A DNA stretch of 64,000 nt from Octopus vulgaris (lineage: Eukaryota): NCBI GenBank assembly GCA_951406725.2, contig OX597837.1, positions 17,546,001 to 17,610,000 on the forward strand, given 5' to 3'. This document shows, piece after piece, positions 16,901 through 22,900 of this stretch (within the stretch, counting starts at the first letter, position 1; every line of letters begins with the position of its first letter). Made by a program: the position numbers.

Positions 16901-19900
16901 TACATTGTTATCACTCACTTAACTGTCAGTCAATCTTCTAAGTCGTTGTACCTACTAAAAAATATTCACTTCAATTCTTAATAACTAGCTACATGGTGTT
17001 TTGTATATCTAGTCATACGGCTATCTACCAATTTGTCCATTATACCACACCAGCAAGGTAGCTTTTTAATTGTCTACATCTCTAGTGAGCTAGTTAGTTA
17101 CCTGAGAGAAATACTAAGAAACTAGTGATGGTGTCTATCAGCAAGTAGTGACTACAAACAGTTCACAAAGTAGAATTGTTAGCTCCTCGCAAGAAACTCA
17201 TTTATTTTCTATTTAGCAAATTGTCTGTATTTGTTTATAAATCTATCCAACCAGCTAGCTACTTCGCAGTCTGTTCTGCTACCCTATCGAGATGGTCATT
17301 AGTCAATTTAACGTATCAAGTCAATTCTGATGCTATGTTTTCTAGGTACTTTGGGGTTACCTCACCCCCATTAAAAAACTAGGTTATCTTCCCACTAAAA
17401 AACTAAAGTTTATGTGATGACAAGAGATTGGATTAAAAGAATTAGATCCTTTTGATTCAATACTTCAACACGTTGTTAATGTTTGGCCTCCTCAATGATT
17501 TGTTATAAAAATGTTATCAGATTTAGTAAGATGTTTAATCTTTTCATGTTTATTAATCTTTTCAGTTTTGTGTGATTTGGTATAAAAATATTACCAGATT
17601 CAATACGAGGTTTCACTTTTTTTTTTTTATTAAATGTTAAACAATTTTTTTAGTTGAGGGATATAACTAAAAGTACCGATATTCCTCATAAAACGTGGGG
17701 AGATAACCCAATATTTTAAGGGGGTGAGATAACCAAAAAGTACCGTTTTCTAAGTATTGTGAAAGGTCGACCGCTGGTATCGAAAGGTTTTGCTCAAAGT
17801 AGAATTAGTTAGCTCCTCGCAAGAAACTCATTTATTTTCTATTTAGCAAATTGTCTGTATTTGTTTATAAATCTATCCAACCAGCTAGCTACTTGAGGTT
17901 TTCACGCATTTACTTCGGCAGCGTGAGTTGAAACGTTTCCAGTTTCAGAATCACGAAAACGTATCAAGTCAATTCTGATGCTATGTTTTCTAGGTGACAT
18001 TTCATTTATACGTTACTTTACCTTCCCAATGATGTCGACAGCTTTATAGTATCTGAAACGTGAAAAATTGAGTTCCGTAGAGTAAGAGCCGAACTTACAG
18101 ATAGCTGCATAACTACAGATTGTTAATGTTTGGCCTCCTCAATGATTTGTTATAAAAATGTTATCAGATTTAGTAAGATGTTTAATCTTTTCAGTTTTGT
18201 GTGATTTGGTATAGATCAATCTCACACTCTCTCGACTTCGTTTTCTCACAACTCTCTTTAAGATGCATATTTTTAAATGACTTTTGGAAAAATTCATTTT
18301 CGAGGGTGTAGATTTCGTAATATTAATATTTCAGATATATAAATCTGAAAAAGAAAAAAGGTAAAAATACTAAAATGACGGAAATTGTTGGTAACAAACG
18401 CAGGGAAAAGGATAAAAATTTCCTTCAAAAAATCTTTTTTCATTTTATTAAGATAATCGTAATCTAGATCCTTGAAAAGCCATCTCTGTATAAGTTTCGT
18501 TTAAAACATGCATTTTTCAAAAACTTATGAGTTTGTGTAGTCATTCATAAATAAAAGTAATCGATATGTATATCTAAAATTGATTCCCTAAACAAAGAAC
18601 GACAATTAGGTTTTCACGCATTTACTTCGGCAGCGTGAGTTGAAACGTTTCCAGTTTCAGAATCACGAAAAAGAAAAAAAAATAACGGTACTGTTACTAA
18701 TCGAGCGAGGAAACAGACATTTCATTTATACGTTACTTTACCTTCCCAATGATGTCGACAGCTTTATAGTATCTGATCGGAAAATGAGTGAGTTTTAAAG
18801 AAAATAAATCACAAAGAATATATAAATTTTCTAACTTCGATTTCCCTCATAACTTTCAGAAAAAGGGATATTTTTGTTTTCATATTCGTTTTCAACACAC
18901 TTCTTTACACCTAGCAGACTGGGTTTTTTTCGTGACCGATTTATTACATTCACTACATTCAATGTTTTGTCTCGCTGTGAAATTAAACCCCATAAGGGTA
19001 TTTTCGATATTCATTTTCGAGGGTGTAGATTTCGTAATATTAATATTTCAATCAGAATTCATACCCAAACTACGAAGGTATTAGTATAGCGTAGGATACT
19101 TATTCAAATGTAAACAAAAAATGTGGCTTGACAAACCAGTTTAATCTTTCCGTTCAAACTCCGCTAGTTTCGACTCTGCTTTCACAAAACCGACCCCACC
19201 ACCAACTATGATCCATAAAATAAGTATCAATGATACAATATACGGTTCAAACGACTATGCATCCTTCCTCAAAAACGTCAGCATAATTTGTATCTGTTTT
19301 ATTATTACCTAAAATTGGGCCAACAAAGAACGACAATTGTTATCAGATTCTCGGATGGGGTTACAAAAGGATGAGTTTGAAAATTCCAAAAATTCACAAA
19401 AAATGCAAAAATTATAAAATCGAATGAAAAAAACAGACCGGAAGACATTACAGGTGGAGTGGGGGCGGGTTCAGCTCGGACCCCACGAGCCCCGCCTCAC
19501 CACTGATACTTTTGGTTTCGTTCTGATTTACATTTATGTGGTGTCATCCATTCTCAACTTCCGTGCTACATCCTTCCATCGTTCTTCATACACTCTTTTA
19601 GTCAGGCATTTTCTCTCCAGCCCTATCTTCCTTTTCAGGTGGTAGATGAAGTAATTCATCAACCCAGGGCCGGATATGAACTTGCCTGACCGTGTACCTT
19701 TCATTCTCGTCTTCCATATCACCTCTTTCGCAATTGCTACCACAACGAGAAAACAATTCTTACCTTCTTTCGCGAGGAAATCTGGTGGGTCAATTTTTTT
19801 AATACACTCAGTCGACAGCTGTACTCTTCGTGTGCTTGACAACAGCTGTGAAATTAAACCCCATAAGGGTATTTTCGATAGCTTACATCAGGATTGTACC

Positions 19901-22900
19901 AATTGGTTTGAATGTTATTTAATAATCCATCAGAATTCATACCCAAACTACGAAGGTATTAGTATAGACCCAGGGTTTCCCCCAAGGTGTCTTCACATTT
20001 CGCCTCTACCAACCCTCTATAGAAGAATGTGGTGGAACCCCCACCGCAGGCGTTGCCCGAGCGACGGAATAGCAGGAGAGCCTTGCGACACTCCGTATGC
20101 CATGTACCGGGTTTCGATCTACGATTCGGCCAGGTTTTCCGTCCACCGAAACTAGTGAACTTGGGAAACATCAGTTTTGCTAACGGAGACCACACCCGTT
20201 CACCATCCAGGTAGAGCCACAGATGTCTTAACCTCAGCGCATGTCTGCGCATCATCAGCCAAGGCATCCCTATCCTACTCCTCAAATACGTCAGCATAAT
20301 TTGTATCACTGAGTAATTACTTCTACCGTATTCCAAGCAGACCTTCGTTTTATTGTAATTAATCATCGAAAGTGGTTCTTTCTTTTTGGGAATTTTTCTG
20401 AAAGTTTTGCTTCAATTTTTTTTTCTTTTTCATTTATAAGGATATAAAAAGGTGGTCTGTAAGCGAAAAGTGTCAACCAAACCATCCAGTGAAAATAAAT
20501 AATTTTACAAATACCTCACGACAGACATCTTGGTTGCTAGGGAATACGTTACGTCACTTCCTGTTACTATTAGTCGCCAAAATGTCCGCCAAACTTGAAT
20601 GTTTTTCCTAAATTTAACACTTCTGAAATAATTATAGAAGTATCACCGAACACTGACTGAAGTACGGAACAGTATTTGAGTATTACAGAAATATTACCTG
20701 AATATAGTATTATTGAGCTTTACTGACATATTACAGTTGTACCACAGAAGAGCCACAGTTTTCTTCTTGTACAATCTCTGTCTTAGTTGTTTGTTAAAAA
20801 GAAAAAAAACTATGACACAATCCGTTATTATACAAGGTGAGTTTACAGTCTTACTAATTTATTAATTCGACGGATAACGACTGACAAAAATGCATTGCTC
20901 TTCTGAGTTCTGAGTTTAAATCTTACCCTAGTCGACTCTGTTTTTTGTCTTGAAAACTTCCAGAGTTGATAATATTAAGTACCAGTCTAGTACTGAGATT
21001 GATATGGTCGATTATATTCCCACTCCTAGATATGTGACCTTAATACCCTGTTTGTATTTGACGAGGAAGCCTCTAAGAGAAATTTTGGAAGGCATAACAT
21101 GACATCGGTTCAGTGGGAAATTATCTTGTACACAAAAAAAACCGTAATTTCCTCGGATCTGTTTGTTTCAGGCACCGTAGAGCGTGATTCTGAGGAGGTG
21201 CGGTGGGGGTCGCCCTTCACCTTTTCCATAATGTTTAATTTACTTGAAGAATTTAGGCATATGAGAATCACCGCGGTTTGAAAAGAAACTAGCAAGGTTT
21301 CATTCGGTATACGTATCAGCAATGCCATTTTAAAATCAGCTGATTTGTCGAGACATTCGGCAATTTACGGGGGAAAACATCTTTTTTTTTCTTCTTCATG
21401 TGCTCATGTCGACATTGTTTTTAATCTGTTCGAATGCTGAACAAATACACACACACACTCTCTCTCCCTTCCCCCTCACACATACATATAACGCATAAAT
21501 ACACACATCCTTTTTGTGTTTTTCTCAGTTTGTAAAGTTTGCCCATACACATTCTCCATACTCCTCTCTCTCTACCTGTTAGTAGGAGGGGTTCGTTCTT
21601 CACGTCACCAATTGTTTTTTCCTCAATCATTTCTTTTTTTTTTTTACGGTTCGATCAGTGTATATATAAATTAGTGACATGAGTGAGGAACGAACCCCAG
21701 CTACTGACCGGTAGAGAAGGGAGGTCAGGAGAGAGTGTGTGCGAAACTTTTAAGAAATAGAAGGGGGAAAAAGCTATCTAAAAAATAGATGAAAAAATCA
21801 AATATACGAATCGTAAAAAAATGCTTAAACATTAATCATAAAAACATACAAAAATGGATGTATACCTGTATTTATGTACGTATGAGTGAGTGCAGTGTTG
21901 GGTCTCTGAACACTACCCTGTCTTCTTTCGCTCCCTTTGTACCAAGGTCAAGTTGACTCAACTTGCTGGTCCAGGTCCTTGCTGGGATTCTGTTTCACAT
22001 TGTACCATTCCAATTTGTTGATGTTAAGTTGTTTGGCCAGCTTTCTTTGTGGTTGCTGCCTTGACTGAGTGTGCATGTCAAGTTTTGCAAGGTTGAGTTT
22101 GTGATCTGACCAGCACACCCTAACATCCTGCCTGTCCCATCTCCTGACTATGATGTAGAGAATTAAATGCCAATGTTTGCTGTGTAGATGCATCAGGGAT
22201 GTCTTCTTGTGTTTGGTTAGACGAAACATTGTGTTGGTGATCAGCAGGTCATTTGCTGCACAAGTCTTCAGTAGTAGATAACTGTTGCTCTTGCCAAATC
22301 CATTTCTCCCAATGGTTCCCTCTTATGTCTGATAGTCTGTACCAACTCTGGTGTTGAAGTCACCAAGAACAATGAGGTTGTCTTCCTTAAGCACAGCTAC
22401 TATGAGGGTTTCTAAGTCTTCATAAAATTTGTCTTTGACATCCTCAGTGTCGGTCATGGTGGGGGAGTAAGAACTGACAATGGCAGCATGGCACTTTCCT
22501 CTGAGGGGAAGCCACACAGACATCAGTTGGTCCTTTCAGTCCTGGTTAGCTTGCTGACCAGGTTAGGCTTTCACTCATCTGGGCCAGAGCACATATAGAC
22601 ACCAAAACTGGTTCAATAATAATGATGAGAAAATTCAGAAGCTGCTCAATGAGAAGCATGAAGCATACAGAATCTCTCAGCAAGAGAGCACATCAGCCTC
22701 CAAGAAAGCAACCTACAATGCTGCCGAAAGCAAAGTGCAGGTAAAGCTCAGAGAGATGATGGATTCCTGGCTCAGAGATAAGGCAGATGAGATACAAAAG
22801 TACACTGACAGCAACAATTCCAAGCACTTCTACAATGACCTGAAAGCCATAAATAGGATACGGTCCTCTGGAACATCACCACTGCTCAGGGCTGATGAGA

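What the first reader, a model, noticed from the sequence alone, without database searches (positions are those of the whole stretch)
17166..20307. Braided mosaic: about ten short segments each present twice, swapped like cassettes
Seen, near-identical direct pairs: A 17166-17264/17795-17894; B 17310-17347/17958-17995; C 17473-17584/18120-18213; D 17896-17959/18608-18671; E 17996-18056/18716-18776; F 18292-18333/19009-19050; G 18974-19009/19845-19880; H 19051-19089/19929-19967; J 18591-18607/19322-19338; I ~19261-19294/20272-20307. The order is interleaved: A-x-B vs A-D-B, D-x-E vs D-B-E, G-x-H vs G-F-H, with the swapped piece about the same length (36-65 nt) as the one it replaces. Offsets grow from ~630 to ~1010 bp, and pieces cross MITE and Tx1 boundaries. 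A simple tandem duplication does not explain this. Inference: serial template switching (MMBIR/FoSTeS or Pol theta templated insertions) in the presumed KLHDC9 5' intron, or an assembly/polishing artefact.
Basis: partly seen in the sequence, partly recalled or inferred. Interest (0 to 1): 0.72.

Follow-up and report, generated by a model that had tools for sequence, protein, structure and literature searches.

The report
Patchwork copy-paste DNA near octopus KLHDC9
Two short stretches of octopus DNA are stitched from alternating copies of sequences lying a few hundred bases away on either side, most likely scars of sloppy DNA repair next to jumping genes, unless they are an assembly error.

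Summary
All ten direct pairs sit at the stated coordinates, and each occurs exactly twice in the 64 kb window. Random sequence gave no direct repeat of 17 nt or more.

The ten pairs are not one phenomenon:
- **Pair I** is the 29-nt target-site duplication of a 5'-truncated L1/Tx1-type LINE remnant (19295-20278, minus strand).
- **Pair J** is ambiguous.
- **Pairs A-H** resolve into two derived mosaic blocks. Block 1 (17795-18213) reads A-D-B-E-orphan-C. Block 2 (18974-19089) reads G-F-H.

Copy direction can be read for three patches. C comes from inside MITE-1, F from inside an intact second MITE, and G from LINE ORF2 sequence. Templates therefore lie on both sides of each block and alternate.

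Two features are odd. Junction microhomology is only at chance level. Copying also runs in lockstep: the stretch skipped on one template matches the length copied from the other (P about 1e-4 or less).

My best reading is recent local templated "filler" synthesis during break or replication repair beside transposon ends (confidence 0.5). The main rival is an assembly or consensus artefact (0.27). No reads or other octopus genomes were available to decide between them.

The parts
17166..17264 (.). A1, source copy of patch A
   Evidence: 99/100 identical to 17795-17894. It sits in unique context.
17310..17347 (.). B1, source copy of patch B. Positions 17337-17344 are the left copy of MITE-1's 8-bp target-site duplication, and its last 3 nt lie in the MITE-1 terminal repeat.
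   Evidence: 38/38 identical to 17958-17995. The duplication GTTTTCTA at 17337-17344 and 17745-17752 was read. B2 carries the 3 MITE bases, so it was copied after the MITE inserted (weak evidence).
17345..17744 (.). MITE-1, a 400-bp element with terminal inverted repeats and an 8-bp target-site duplication. It contains C1.
   Evidence: Terminal repeats 17345-17375 / 17714-17744 are 31 nt and 84% complementary, or 51 nt at 84%. An internal 77-nt tandem repeat, 17496-17556 / 17573-17633 at 78.7%, runs past the end of patch C.
17473..17584 (.). C1, source copy of patch C, native interior of MITE-1
   Evidence: Exact matches 17473-17546 = 18120-18193 and 17553-17584 = 18182-18213. The element's 77-nt repeat continues beyond the patch only at this copy.
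17795..18213 (.). Mosaic block 1 (419 nt). It reads A2 17795-17894, one orphan base, D1 17896-17959, B2 17958-17995, E1 17996-18056, orphan u 18057-18119, C2 18120-18213.
   Evidence: Patches abut with 0-2 nt overlap. Its length equals that of the source span 17166-17584. Orphan u has no source in the window beyond chance. The block lies 50 nt from the MITE-1 end and 11 nt from the MITE-2a end.
18225..18539 (.). MITE-2a, an intact copy of a long-armed MITE family. It contains F1 (18292-18333).
   Evidence: The left arm 18232-18316 and the inverted right arm 18419-18531 match the family copy at 24204-24649 at 67-71%. F1 lies wholly inside family-homologous sequence, so F1 is the source.
18574..18607 (.). 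J1: a 17-nt exact core (18591-18607) plus a diverged extension. It resembles the 3' UTR end of the LINE remnant and abuts D2.
   Evidence: It is ambiguous: either a second, very short truncated copy of the LINE family or an error-rich templated patch.
18608..18776 (.). D2 (18608-18671), y (44 nt), E2 (18716-18776): the presumed source of D1 and E1
   Evidence: 64/64 and 61/61 identical. Polarity is inferred by parsimony only, not shown.
18974..19089 (.). Mosaic block 2 (116 nt): G1 18974-19009, F2 19009-19050, H1 19051-19089
   Evidence: Three abutting patches with 1 and 0 nt overlap. F2 is a 42-nt internal piece of MITE-2a without its flanks. G1 is a 36-nt piece of LINE ORF2 sequence.
19266..19294 (.).
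   Evidence: 28/29 identical to 20279-20307. It lies immediately outside the 3' end of the LINE remnant.
19295..20278 (-). 5'-truncated remnant of an L1/Tx1-type non-LTR retrotransposon (ORF2 C-terminal part plus 3' UTR). It contains J2 19322-19338, G2 19845-19880 and H2 19929-19967. The ORF2 remnant is broken by a 5' truncation, one internal deletion with a change of frame relative to two longer relatives, and one in-frame stop.
   Evidence: The 102-aa ORF 19534-19842 (minus strand) has 97 relatives. Of 10 longer relatives scanned, 3 carry Pfam zf-RVT just upstream of the match. tblastn of the 97 relatives gave 103 alignments with outer bounds 19387-20273.
20279..20307 (.).
   Evidence: Protein-level LINE homology ends at 20273.
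13542..14525 (-). Neighbouring gene: kelch-repeat ORF (KLHDC9 orthologue), 327 aa, uninterrupted
   Evidence: Pfam kelch domains. It is 99% identical to Octopus sinensis KLHDC9 isoform X2. It is collinear with that protein without introns.

Best explanation
Pairs A-H record recent, local, copy-and-paste DNA synthesis. Two short insertions were built from pieces copied alternately from templates a few hundred bases upstream and downstream on the same chromosome region. Block 1 is 419 nt and block 2 is 116 nt.

Block 1 takes A, B and C from the span 17166-17584, which includes the interior of MITE-1. It takes D and E from 18608-18776, and it adds a 63-nt piece of unknown origin. Block 2 takes G, and probably H, from the LINE remnant downstream and F from MITE-2a upstream.

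The most likely setting is repair of a break or a collapsed fork beside transposon ends. Block 1 lies 11 nt from the MITE-2a terminus and 50 nt from MITE-1. A newly made strand repeatedly left one template and continued on another. This is gap filling or "filler DNA", a BIR-like synthesis with template switches.

**Shown:** the mosaic composition; the polarity of C, F and G; that the blocks are younger than the MITEs and the LINE (no substitutions in 473 nt of patches, against 1 mismatch in 29 nt of the LINE target-site duplication).

**Inferred:** the polarity of A, B, D, E and H; that both blocks share one mechanism or one event; the enzymology.

**Unexplained:** copying is in register, and the junctions lack microhomology.

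Pair I is an ordinary LINE target-site duplication. No function is implied. This is a neutral structural scar 2.6-5.8 kb upstream of the KLHDC9 ORF.
For: - The exact pairs are far beyond chance, and each is present twice only.
- Of 13 inter-patch or flanking intervals, 10 show no residual homology against 300 shuffles each. That excludes a decayed tandem duplication.
- Patches abut inside the two blocks but stand alone in unique or transposon context at their other copy.
- C1 is native to MITE-1, because the element's 77-nt internal repeat continues past the patch only there.
- C2 lacks 18 nt between two 12-nt direct repeats, which looks like a polymerase slip.
- F1 lies inside an intact MITE whose arms match a family copy at 24204-24649. 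F2 is a flankless 42-nt piece.
- G2 lies in sequence that aligns to ORF2 of relatives.
- Small imperfections look like biology rather than pasted text: a 1-nt non-homopolymer indel in A, the decaying tail of E, one orphan base.
- Published precedent (passages read): transposon-associated gap filling with template switching captures nearby sequence, with median microhomology of 2 bp and many blunt junctions (PMC8277862).
- Rice transposon excisions leave fillers of 1-123 bp (PMC4423477).
- Octopus vulgaris has recently active Tc1-mariner, hAT, MITE and L1-Tx1 families (PMC13282606).
Against: - Junction microhomology is no more than chance: 3 of 9 junctions have 1 nt or more, total 5 nt against a chance mean of 6.6.
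- All 8 pairs are direct. Known template-switch insertions are often inverted.
- The lockstep is not predicted by any repair model I can name. Skips of 45, 125, 44 and 48 nt stand against 64, 124, 36 and 41 nt copied elsewhere, P about 5e-6 to 1e-4. Block 1 and its source span are both exactly 419 nt.
- Eleven switches within 1.3 kb would be extreme.
- No empty site, read support or second genome was available. A search for independent data found nothing.
- The polarity of D, E and H is not shown. H2 lies in a stretch of the LINE remnant with no protein-level match.
Confidence: 0.5

Rival explanations
1. Assembly or consensus artefact. The two mosaic blocks do not exist in the animal. They arose when a consensus or polishing step stacked reads from neighbouring positions over the same backbone columns and picked one or the other population in patches.
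For: - A column-wise consensus of two mis-stacked sequences would give exactly what the repair models do not predict. Those features are in-register alternation, preserved total length of 419 = 419 and blunt junctions with chance-level microhomology.
- It would also account for 100% identity inside patches with abrupt ends, direct orientation only and no patch longer than 100 nt in the blocks.
- False duplications are documented in assemblies of heterozygous genomes (PMC9516828; search listing and start of abstract only).
Against: - I could not build a concrete scenario. Both sources survive intact, with unique DNA and a whole MITE between them and the blocks. There is no underlying homology that would pull reads 630-880 nt out of place.
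- Graph-based artefacts need overlaps of k-1 bases, and these are absent.
- The 63-nt orphan has no source in the window.
- The 18-nt skip between 12-nt repeats and the non-homopolymer indel look like polymerase events.
- The rest of the window shows nothing similar.
Confidence: 0.27
2. Modules of dispersed repeats. The patches are pieces of multi-copy transposon families, and the locus is a pile of related, modular elements inserted independently, with no local copying.
For: - F belongs to a MITE family with another copy at 24204-24649.
- C is MITE interior.
- G and J2 lie within the LINE remnant, whose ORF has 97 protein relatives.
- About 66% of an octopus genome is repeats (PMC13282606).
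Against: - The local pairs are 100% identical, while the only other family copy in the window is about 70% identical.
- The patches are internal fragments without element ends.
- A, B, D and E match nothing else in 64 kb.
- Independent insertions would not abut base to base or keep register.
Confidence: 0.08
3. Old tandem array of 630-1000-bp units whose variable parts have diverged beyond recognition, with recent short gene-conversion patches between neighbouring units.
For: - Offsets cluster by unit (629-648, 712-731, 871-878) and spacing is conserved.
- Only neighbouring units share patches.
Against: - Inter-patch DNA shows no homology in 10 of 13 intervals.
- The three exceptions are two arms of a MITE family, an A-rich stretch, and one short unexplained match before G.
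- Conversion needs flanking homology, which is absent here.
- C, F and G are fragments of three unrelated transposons, not of one repeat unit.
Confidence: 0.03

Closest known systems
Filler DNA / gap filling at double-strand breaks and transposon ends (Pack-TIR gap-filling model, PMC8277862; rice excision fillers, PMC4423477)
   Same: Short pieces are copied from nearby sequence in cis and inserted next to terminal-inverted-repeat elements. Several pieces can join in one insertion. Many junctions are blunt or have 1-2 nt microhomology. The donors stay intact.
   Different: Here the pieces alternate strictly between an upstream and a downstream donor and keep register with both. The filler lies beside the elements, not inside them. 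Rice fillers averaged 13 bp with a maximum of 123 bp, whereas block 1 is 419 nt.
MMBIR / FoSTeS iterative template switching (PMC2621351: search listing and abstract start only; other details recalled)
   Same: One event with several switches to templates within a few kb gives interspersed duplicated segments.
   Different: The defining microhomology at junctions is not enriched. No larger copy-number change accompanies the switches. All segments are direct. The register is kept.
Polymerase theta templated insertions (recalled, no call)
   Same: Insertions are copied from sequence flanking a break, sometimes in several rounds.
   Different: Typical tracts are a few to about 30 nt and are primed by microhomology. 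Here the patches are 36-100 nt with blunt junctions, and donors lie up to about 880 nt away in the present sequence (less before the blocks were inserted).
Four-point short-range template switch model (PMC7954356, passages read)
   Same: The model describes leaving the template at point 1, copying 2 to 3 elsewhere and returning at point 4. Comparing the 2-3 length with the 1-4 distance is exactly the lockstep measure used here.
   Different: Those events copy the opposite strand (reverse complement). Their median tract is 12 nt with a maximum of 128, and only 5.5% leave length unchanged. Here the copies are direct, longer and chained.
LINE target-site duplication
   Same: Pair I is a 29-nt direct repeat (28/29) immediately flanking both ends of a 5'-truncated non-LTR element.
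   Different: Nothing unusual except that it is rather long. It is not part of the braid.

Membership tests
Simple or decayed tandem duplication | Continuous homology, even if diverged, between the two copies across the whole unit | tested here: not met
   Of 13 inter-patch or flanking intervals, 10 are indistinguishable from 300 shuffles. The exceptions are explained or trivial.
MMBIR/FoSTeS template-switch rearrangement | Duplicated segments copied from templates in the neighbourhood (a few kb) | tested here: met
   All sources lie 629-878 nt from their copies.
MMBIR/FoSTeS template-switch rearrangement | Microhomology at switch junctions above chance | tested here: not met
   3 of 9 junctions have 1 nt or more, against 0.46 expected by chance. 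The sum is 5 nt against a chance mean of 6.6, and P(sum >= observed) is 0.74.
MMBIR/FoSTeS template-switch rearrangement | Derived state relative to an ancestral empty site | not testable with these tools
   No reads, haplotypes or other octopus genomes were available. A protein-level search for independent data was empty.
Polymerase theta templated insertion | Short templated tracts (typically under about 30 nt) primed by microhomology close to the break (feature recalled, not from a call) | tested here: not met
   Patches are 36-100 nt and junctions are at chance-level microhomology.
Transposon-associated filler DNA / gap filling | Filler adjoins or replaces part of a terminal-inverted-repeat element, with the donor nearby in cis | tested here: inconclusive
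   Block 1 ends 11 nt from the MITE-2a terminus and starts 50 nt from MITE-1. Block 2 lies about 100 nt from a 35-nt fragment of the same MITE family. No excision footprint could be recognised.
LINE target-site duplication (pair I) | Direct repeat immediately flanking both ends of a non-LTR element | tested here: met
   Repeats 19266-19294 / 20279-20307 are 28/29 identical. Protein homology to zf-RVT-bearing ORF2 relatives reaches 20273. The minus-strand 3' end is A-rich at 19295.
   The remnant itself has no Pfam hit. Of 10 longer relatives, 3 carry zf-RVT next to the matched tail. The RT domain is missing through 5' truncation. Clade assignment to Tx1 in particular was not tested.
Assembly false duplication / consensus mosaic | Junctions unsupported by raw reads | not testable with these tools
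   No read data were available.
Structured RNA or coding cassette | Conserved structure, a known RNA family or an open reading frame in the patches | tested here: not met
   There are no Rfam matches at gathering score. At E<=1 the only match is a chance hit in the MITE-1 terminus. No tRNA was found. Of the 9 patches folded (plus the orphan u), 8 fold like shuffles, and D has z = -2.1. No Pfam hit was found in the local ORFs.

The most novel reading that the evidence does not exclude
The blocks are real and record a repair mode not yet described. A growing strand alternates between two unrelated templates about 1 kb apart without needing microhomology, and it stays in register with both. This implies that the two templates were physically held side by side, or that the return point was fixed in advance, for example by a moving repair bubble or a pre-existing downstream strand end. 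If common near transposon ends in octopus, it would be a distinct mutational signature.
Probability: 0.12. Interest if true: 0.7.

Novelty: new variant of a known kind. Interest (0 to 1): 0.42.

Why it matters
If real, the locus is an unusually clean natural record of multi-step templated repair. It shows eleven switches, with the direction of copying readable for three patches because the donors sit inside recognisable transposons.

The in-register alternation without microhomology does not fit the standard models (MMBIR/FoSTeS, Pol theta). It could therefore constrain how templates are held during such repair.

The locus also shows how transposon-rich cephalopod genomes may generate small novel sequence mosaics upstream of genes.

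If it is an artefact, it is a useful example of a consensus error that mimics complex rearrangement, and it should be flagged in that assembly. Either way the decisive evidence is cheap: reads and a sister genome.

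Tried and rejected
- **Decayed tandem repeat.** Rejected by local alignment of 13 intervals against 300 shuffles each.
- **Nested target-site duplications for all pairs.** Rejected. A1 < B1 < A2 < B2 is interleaved, not nested. Only pair I fits.
- **Splicing or a retrocopy of exons A-B-C.** Rejected. 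The skipped pieces lack GT..AG or CT..AC ends (read), and the order A-D-B-E is not collinear.
- **Structured RNAs or tRNA-derived elements.** Nothing found.
- **Coding cassettes.** No Pfam hit in local ORFs.
- **Extra micro-patches at junctions, as Pol theta would leave.** The only candidate is an 11-nt match to C next to J2, which is within chance for the 40 patch flanks examined.
- **H as a continuation of the MITE-2 family after F.** A shared 9-mer was noticed by eye, but the multiple alignment did not support homology.
- **x2 homologous to F.** Not supported.
- **Word-based homologue search of the 102-aa ORF.** It found nothing. The exhaustive search then found 97 relatives.
- **Independent data for the block 2 junctions.** A protein search with the ORF spanning them found nothing.
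- **Failed scripts and calls.** My first microhomology script used a wrong definition and crashed, and it was redone. One search failed on a search term that was too short and was repeated.
- **Not attempted.** No octopus DNA other than the window was available, so the genome-wide copy number of the patches is unchecked. No paper supplements were consulted.

Full report
**Context.** The window is from an octopus genome.
- An uninterrupted 327-aa kelch-repeat ORF at 13542-14525 (minus strand) has Pfam kelch domains.
- It is 99% identical to KLHDC9 isoform X2 of Octopus sinensis.
- It is collinear with that protein without introns. The first 11 residues of the named isoform are not preceded by a start codon here.
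- No spliced model was needed or joined.
- The finding lies 2.6-5.8 kb upstream of this ORF. Whether that is an intron, a 5' UTR or intergenic DNA cannot be told from the sequence.
- The rest of the window is full of retrotransposons: RT/endonuclease ORFs, an LTR element and SINE-like arrays.

**Observation.**
- B, D, E, F, G and H are 100% identical, at 38, 64, 61, 42, 36 and 39 nt.
- A is 99/100 with one single-base indel.
- C is identical except that the second copy lacks 18 nt lying between two 12-nt direct repeats.
- J is 17/17 with a diverged extension.
- I is 28/29 over its core.
- In 17000-20500 there are 11 exact direct repeats of 17 nt or more. None appeared in 200 random sequences of the same first-order composition.
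- Each patch occurs exactly twice in 64 kb and never inverted.
- Other local repeats in the window are ordinary diverged copies at 72-98% identity. None is braided.

**Not a decayed duplication.** I aligned 13 inter-patch and flanking intervals and compared each with 300 shuffles.
- Ten were indistinguishable from shuffles.
- The E-F interval scored high (1 of 300 shuffles). Both sides carry an arm-like piece of one MITE family that also occurs at 24204-24649.
- The stretch after J scored high (5 of 300) and is A-rich.
- The stretch before G (4 of 300) holds a short match that I did not explain.

**What the surrounding elements are.**
1. *MITE-1*, 17345-17744.
   - Its terminal inverted repeats are 31-51 nt at 84%.
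   - It has a perfect 8-bp target-site duplication, GTTTTCTA, at 17337-17344 and 17745-17752 (read).
   - It has an internal 77-nt tandem repeat at 78.7%.
2. *MITE-2a*, about 18225-18539. It is an intact copy of a long-armed family. Its left arm 18232-18316 and inverted right arm 18419-18531 match the copy at 24204-24649 at 67-71%.
3. *A LINE remnant* on the minus strand, 19295-20278.
   - The 102-aa ORF 19534-19842 had no Pfam hit and no hit in the word-based search.
   - The exhaustive search found 97 relatives.
   - Of the 10 longer relatives I scanned, 3 carry the zf-RVT domain directly upstream of the matched tail.
   - tblastn of all 97 onto the window gave 103 alignments with outer bounds 19387-20273.
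   - The ORF2 remnant is 5'-truncated. It has one internal deletion with a change of frame relative to two longer relatives, and one in-frame stop.
L1-Tx1 families are reported as recently active in O. vulgaris (PMC13282606, passages).

**Sorting the ten pairs.**
- Pair I flanks the LINE remnant exactly, at 19266-19294 and 20279-20307. It is the element's target-site duplication, which is ordinary biology and explains the 1011-1013 offset.
- J2 lies in the LINE 3' UTR. J1, with its diverged extension, may be a second, very short truncated copy of that family or an error-rich copied patch. I leave it open.
- The braid proper is pairs A-H.

**Anatomy of the braid.**
- At one copy, each patch stands alone in unique or transposon context.
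- At the other copy, the patches abut each other. They form two blocks:
  - Block 1, 17795-18213, reads A2, one orphan base, D1, B2, E1, a 63-nt orphan, then C2.
  - Block 2, 18974-19089, reads G1, F2, H1.
- The orphan has no source in the window beyond chance.

**Polarity.**
- C1 is native. The 77-nt repeat of MITE-1 continues past the patch end only there. So C2 is the copy.
- F1 is native. It lies inside family-homologous sequence of an intact MITE, while F2 has foreign flanks.
- G2 is native. It lies in sequence that aligns to relatives' ORF2. So G1 is the copy.
- B2 carries the first 3 bases of MITE-1 after the target-site sequence. This weakly indicates copying from B1 after the MITE inserted.
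- H2 lies in a short stretch of the remnant with no protein-level match, so H is undetermined.
- D and E are assigned by parsimony only.

The blocks are therefore the derived sequences, and their templates lie on both sides and alternate. The patches show no substitution in 473 nt, whereas the LINE target-site duplication has 1 mismatch in 29. So the blocks are younger than the transposon insertions.

**Two features that known models do not predict.**
- *Microhomology.* I scored 9 junctions for bases assignable to either template. The values were 0, 2, 2, 0, 0, 0, 1, 0, 0. Three of nine have 1 nt or more, where chance gives 0.46. The sum is 5 against a chance mean of 6.6.
- *Lockstep.* Each time copying returns to a template, the stretch skipped there is about as long as what was copied elsewhere.

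| Skipped on the template | Copied elsewhere |
|---|---|
| 45 nt | 64 nt |
| 125 nt | 124 nt |
| 44 nt | 36 nt |
| 48 nt | 41 nt |

  If the return point were uniform 0-300 nt ahead, all four being this close has P about 5e-6, and the summed difference has P about 1e-4.
  - Block 1 and its main source span are both exactly 419 nt, the internal differences cancelling.
  - Spacing is also kept for E-F (235/232) and F-J (257/271).
  - It is not kept for J-G (366/506) or H-I (171/304).

**Interpretation.** The best-supported reading is recent local templated synthesis during repair of a break or a collapsed fork. A nascent strand copied short stretches alternately from two nearby templates.
- The position of block 1, 11 nt from the end of MITE-2a and 50 nt from MITE-1, fits published gap-filling and filler-DNA scars beside terminal-inverted-repeat transposons. 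In those, many junctions are blunt (PMC8277862, passages; PMC4423477, passages).
- I recall, without a call, that break-induced replication switches templates frequently soon after it starts, and that multi-fragment insertions occur at breaks.
- The 18-nt skip between 12-nt repeats and the non-homopolymer indel look like polymerase behaviour.
- The lockstep and the exclusively direct orientation remain unexplained under this reading.

**Main rival.** A consensus or polishing step that stacked two read populations over the same columns would give several of these features by construction:
- register;
- preserved length;
- blunt junctions;
- perfect patches.

I could not construct a scenario in which reads would be displaced by 630-880 nt with no homology to pull them. 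That scenario would also have to leave both sources, a whole MITE and unique DNA intact in between. Overlap-graph errors would leave overlaps, which are absent. I give the artefact 0.27. It cannot be excluded without reads.

**Known comparisons.** The closest known kinds are transposon-associated filler DNA and MMBIR/FoSTeS-type iterative switching.
- The locus fails the microhomology criterion of MMBIR/FoSTeS.
- It exceeds the usual size of Pol theta insertions.
- In the four-point description of template switches (PMC7954356, passages), this locus is a chain of direct-orientation events whose 2-3 length tracks the 1-4 distance. That is rare in that survey, where 5.5% of events are length-neutral and all are reverse-complement.

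**What stayed unchecked.**
- Raw reads, the other haplotype, other octopus genomes and the genome-wide copy number of the patches.
- A protein-level search with the ORF spanning the block 2 junctions found nothing.
- No supplements were read.

**Verdict.** The template-switch idea is partly supported, but not in its microhomology-mediated form. The lockstep is the interesting residue. I rate interest as moderate (0.42) pending read support.

Noticed in passing
window about 56900-58000: A (TA)n microsatellite of more than 1 kb (GC 2% in 57001-58000). It lies inside the mechanically listed 1510-aa ORF 53842-58374 (minus strand), whose real endonuclease and RT domains lie downstream of it. The long ORF is partly an artefact of TA repeats having no stop in that frame.
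   Followed up: partly
window 439-3506: LTR retrotransposon. The 219-bp LTRs at 439-656 and 3288-3506 are 97.7% identical. Between them lie an integrase-core ORF (762-2441, minus strand) and a weak gag-like ORF (2556-3164, minus strand).
   Followed up: partly
window 49355-49826 and 62862-63913: Arrays of a 63-nt tandem repeat sit next to long retrotransposon-type ORFs (46373-49186 plus strand with RT; 60392-62716 minus strand with no Pfam domain). Related SINE-like pieces recur at about 15508-15765, 27299-27460 and 45164-45421.
   Followed up: no
window 24204-24649: A MITE with 128-nt terminal inverted repeats (74% complementary) and an internal third arm-like copy at 24376-24483. It is the family to which MITE-2a and patch F belong.
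   Followed up: yes
window 16055-16517: A 3' fragment of the LINE whose ORF is at 46373-49186. It is 86% identical to 48857-49284 on the opposite strand and lies just upstream of the braided region.
   Followed up: no
window 14526-14558: The 11 N-terminal residues of the named O. sinensis KLHDC9 isoform X2 align partly to contiguous DNA here, but there is no start codon at that place. The ORF in this window starts at the internal methionine.
   Followed up: partly
window 19338-19349: A 12-nt string directly after J2 also occurs in both copies of patch C. This is within chance for the number of junction flanks examined.
   Followed up: yes
window 17347-17388: A weak sub-threshold Rfam match to the PreQ1 riboswitch (22 bits against a gathering score of 39, E 0.35). 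It falls on the terminal repeat of MITE-1 and is taken as chance.
   Followed up: no
window 10290-10678 and 11510-11886: An ordinary diverged direct repeat, 81.5% over 390 nt at an offset of 1220. It shows what an aged local duplication looks like in this window, in contrast to the braid.
   Followed up: no
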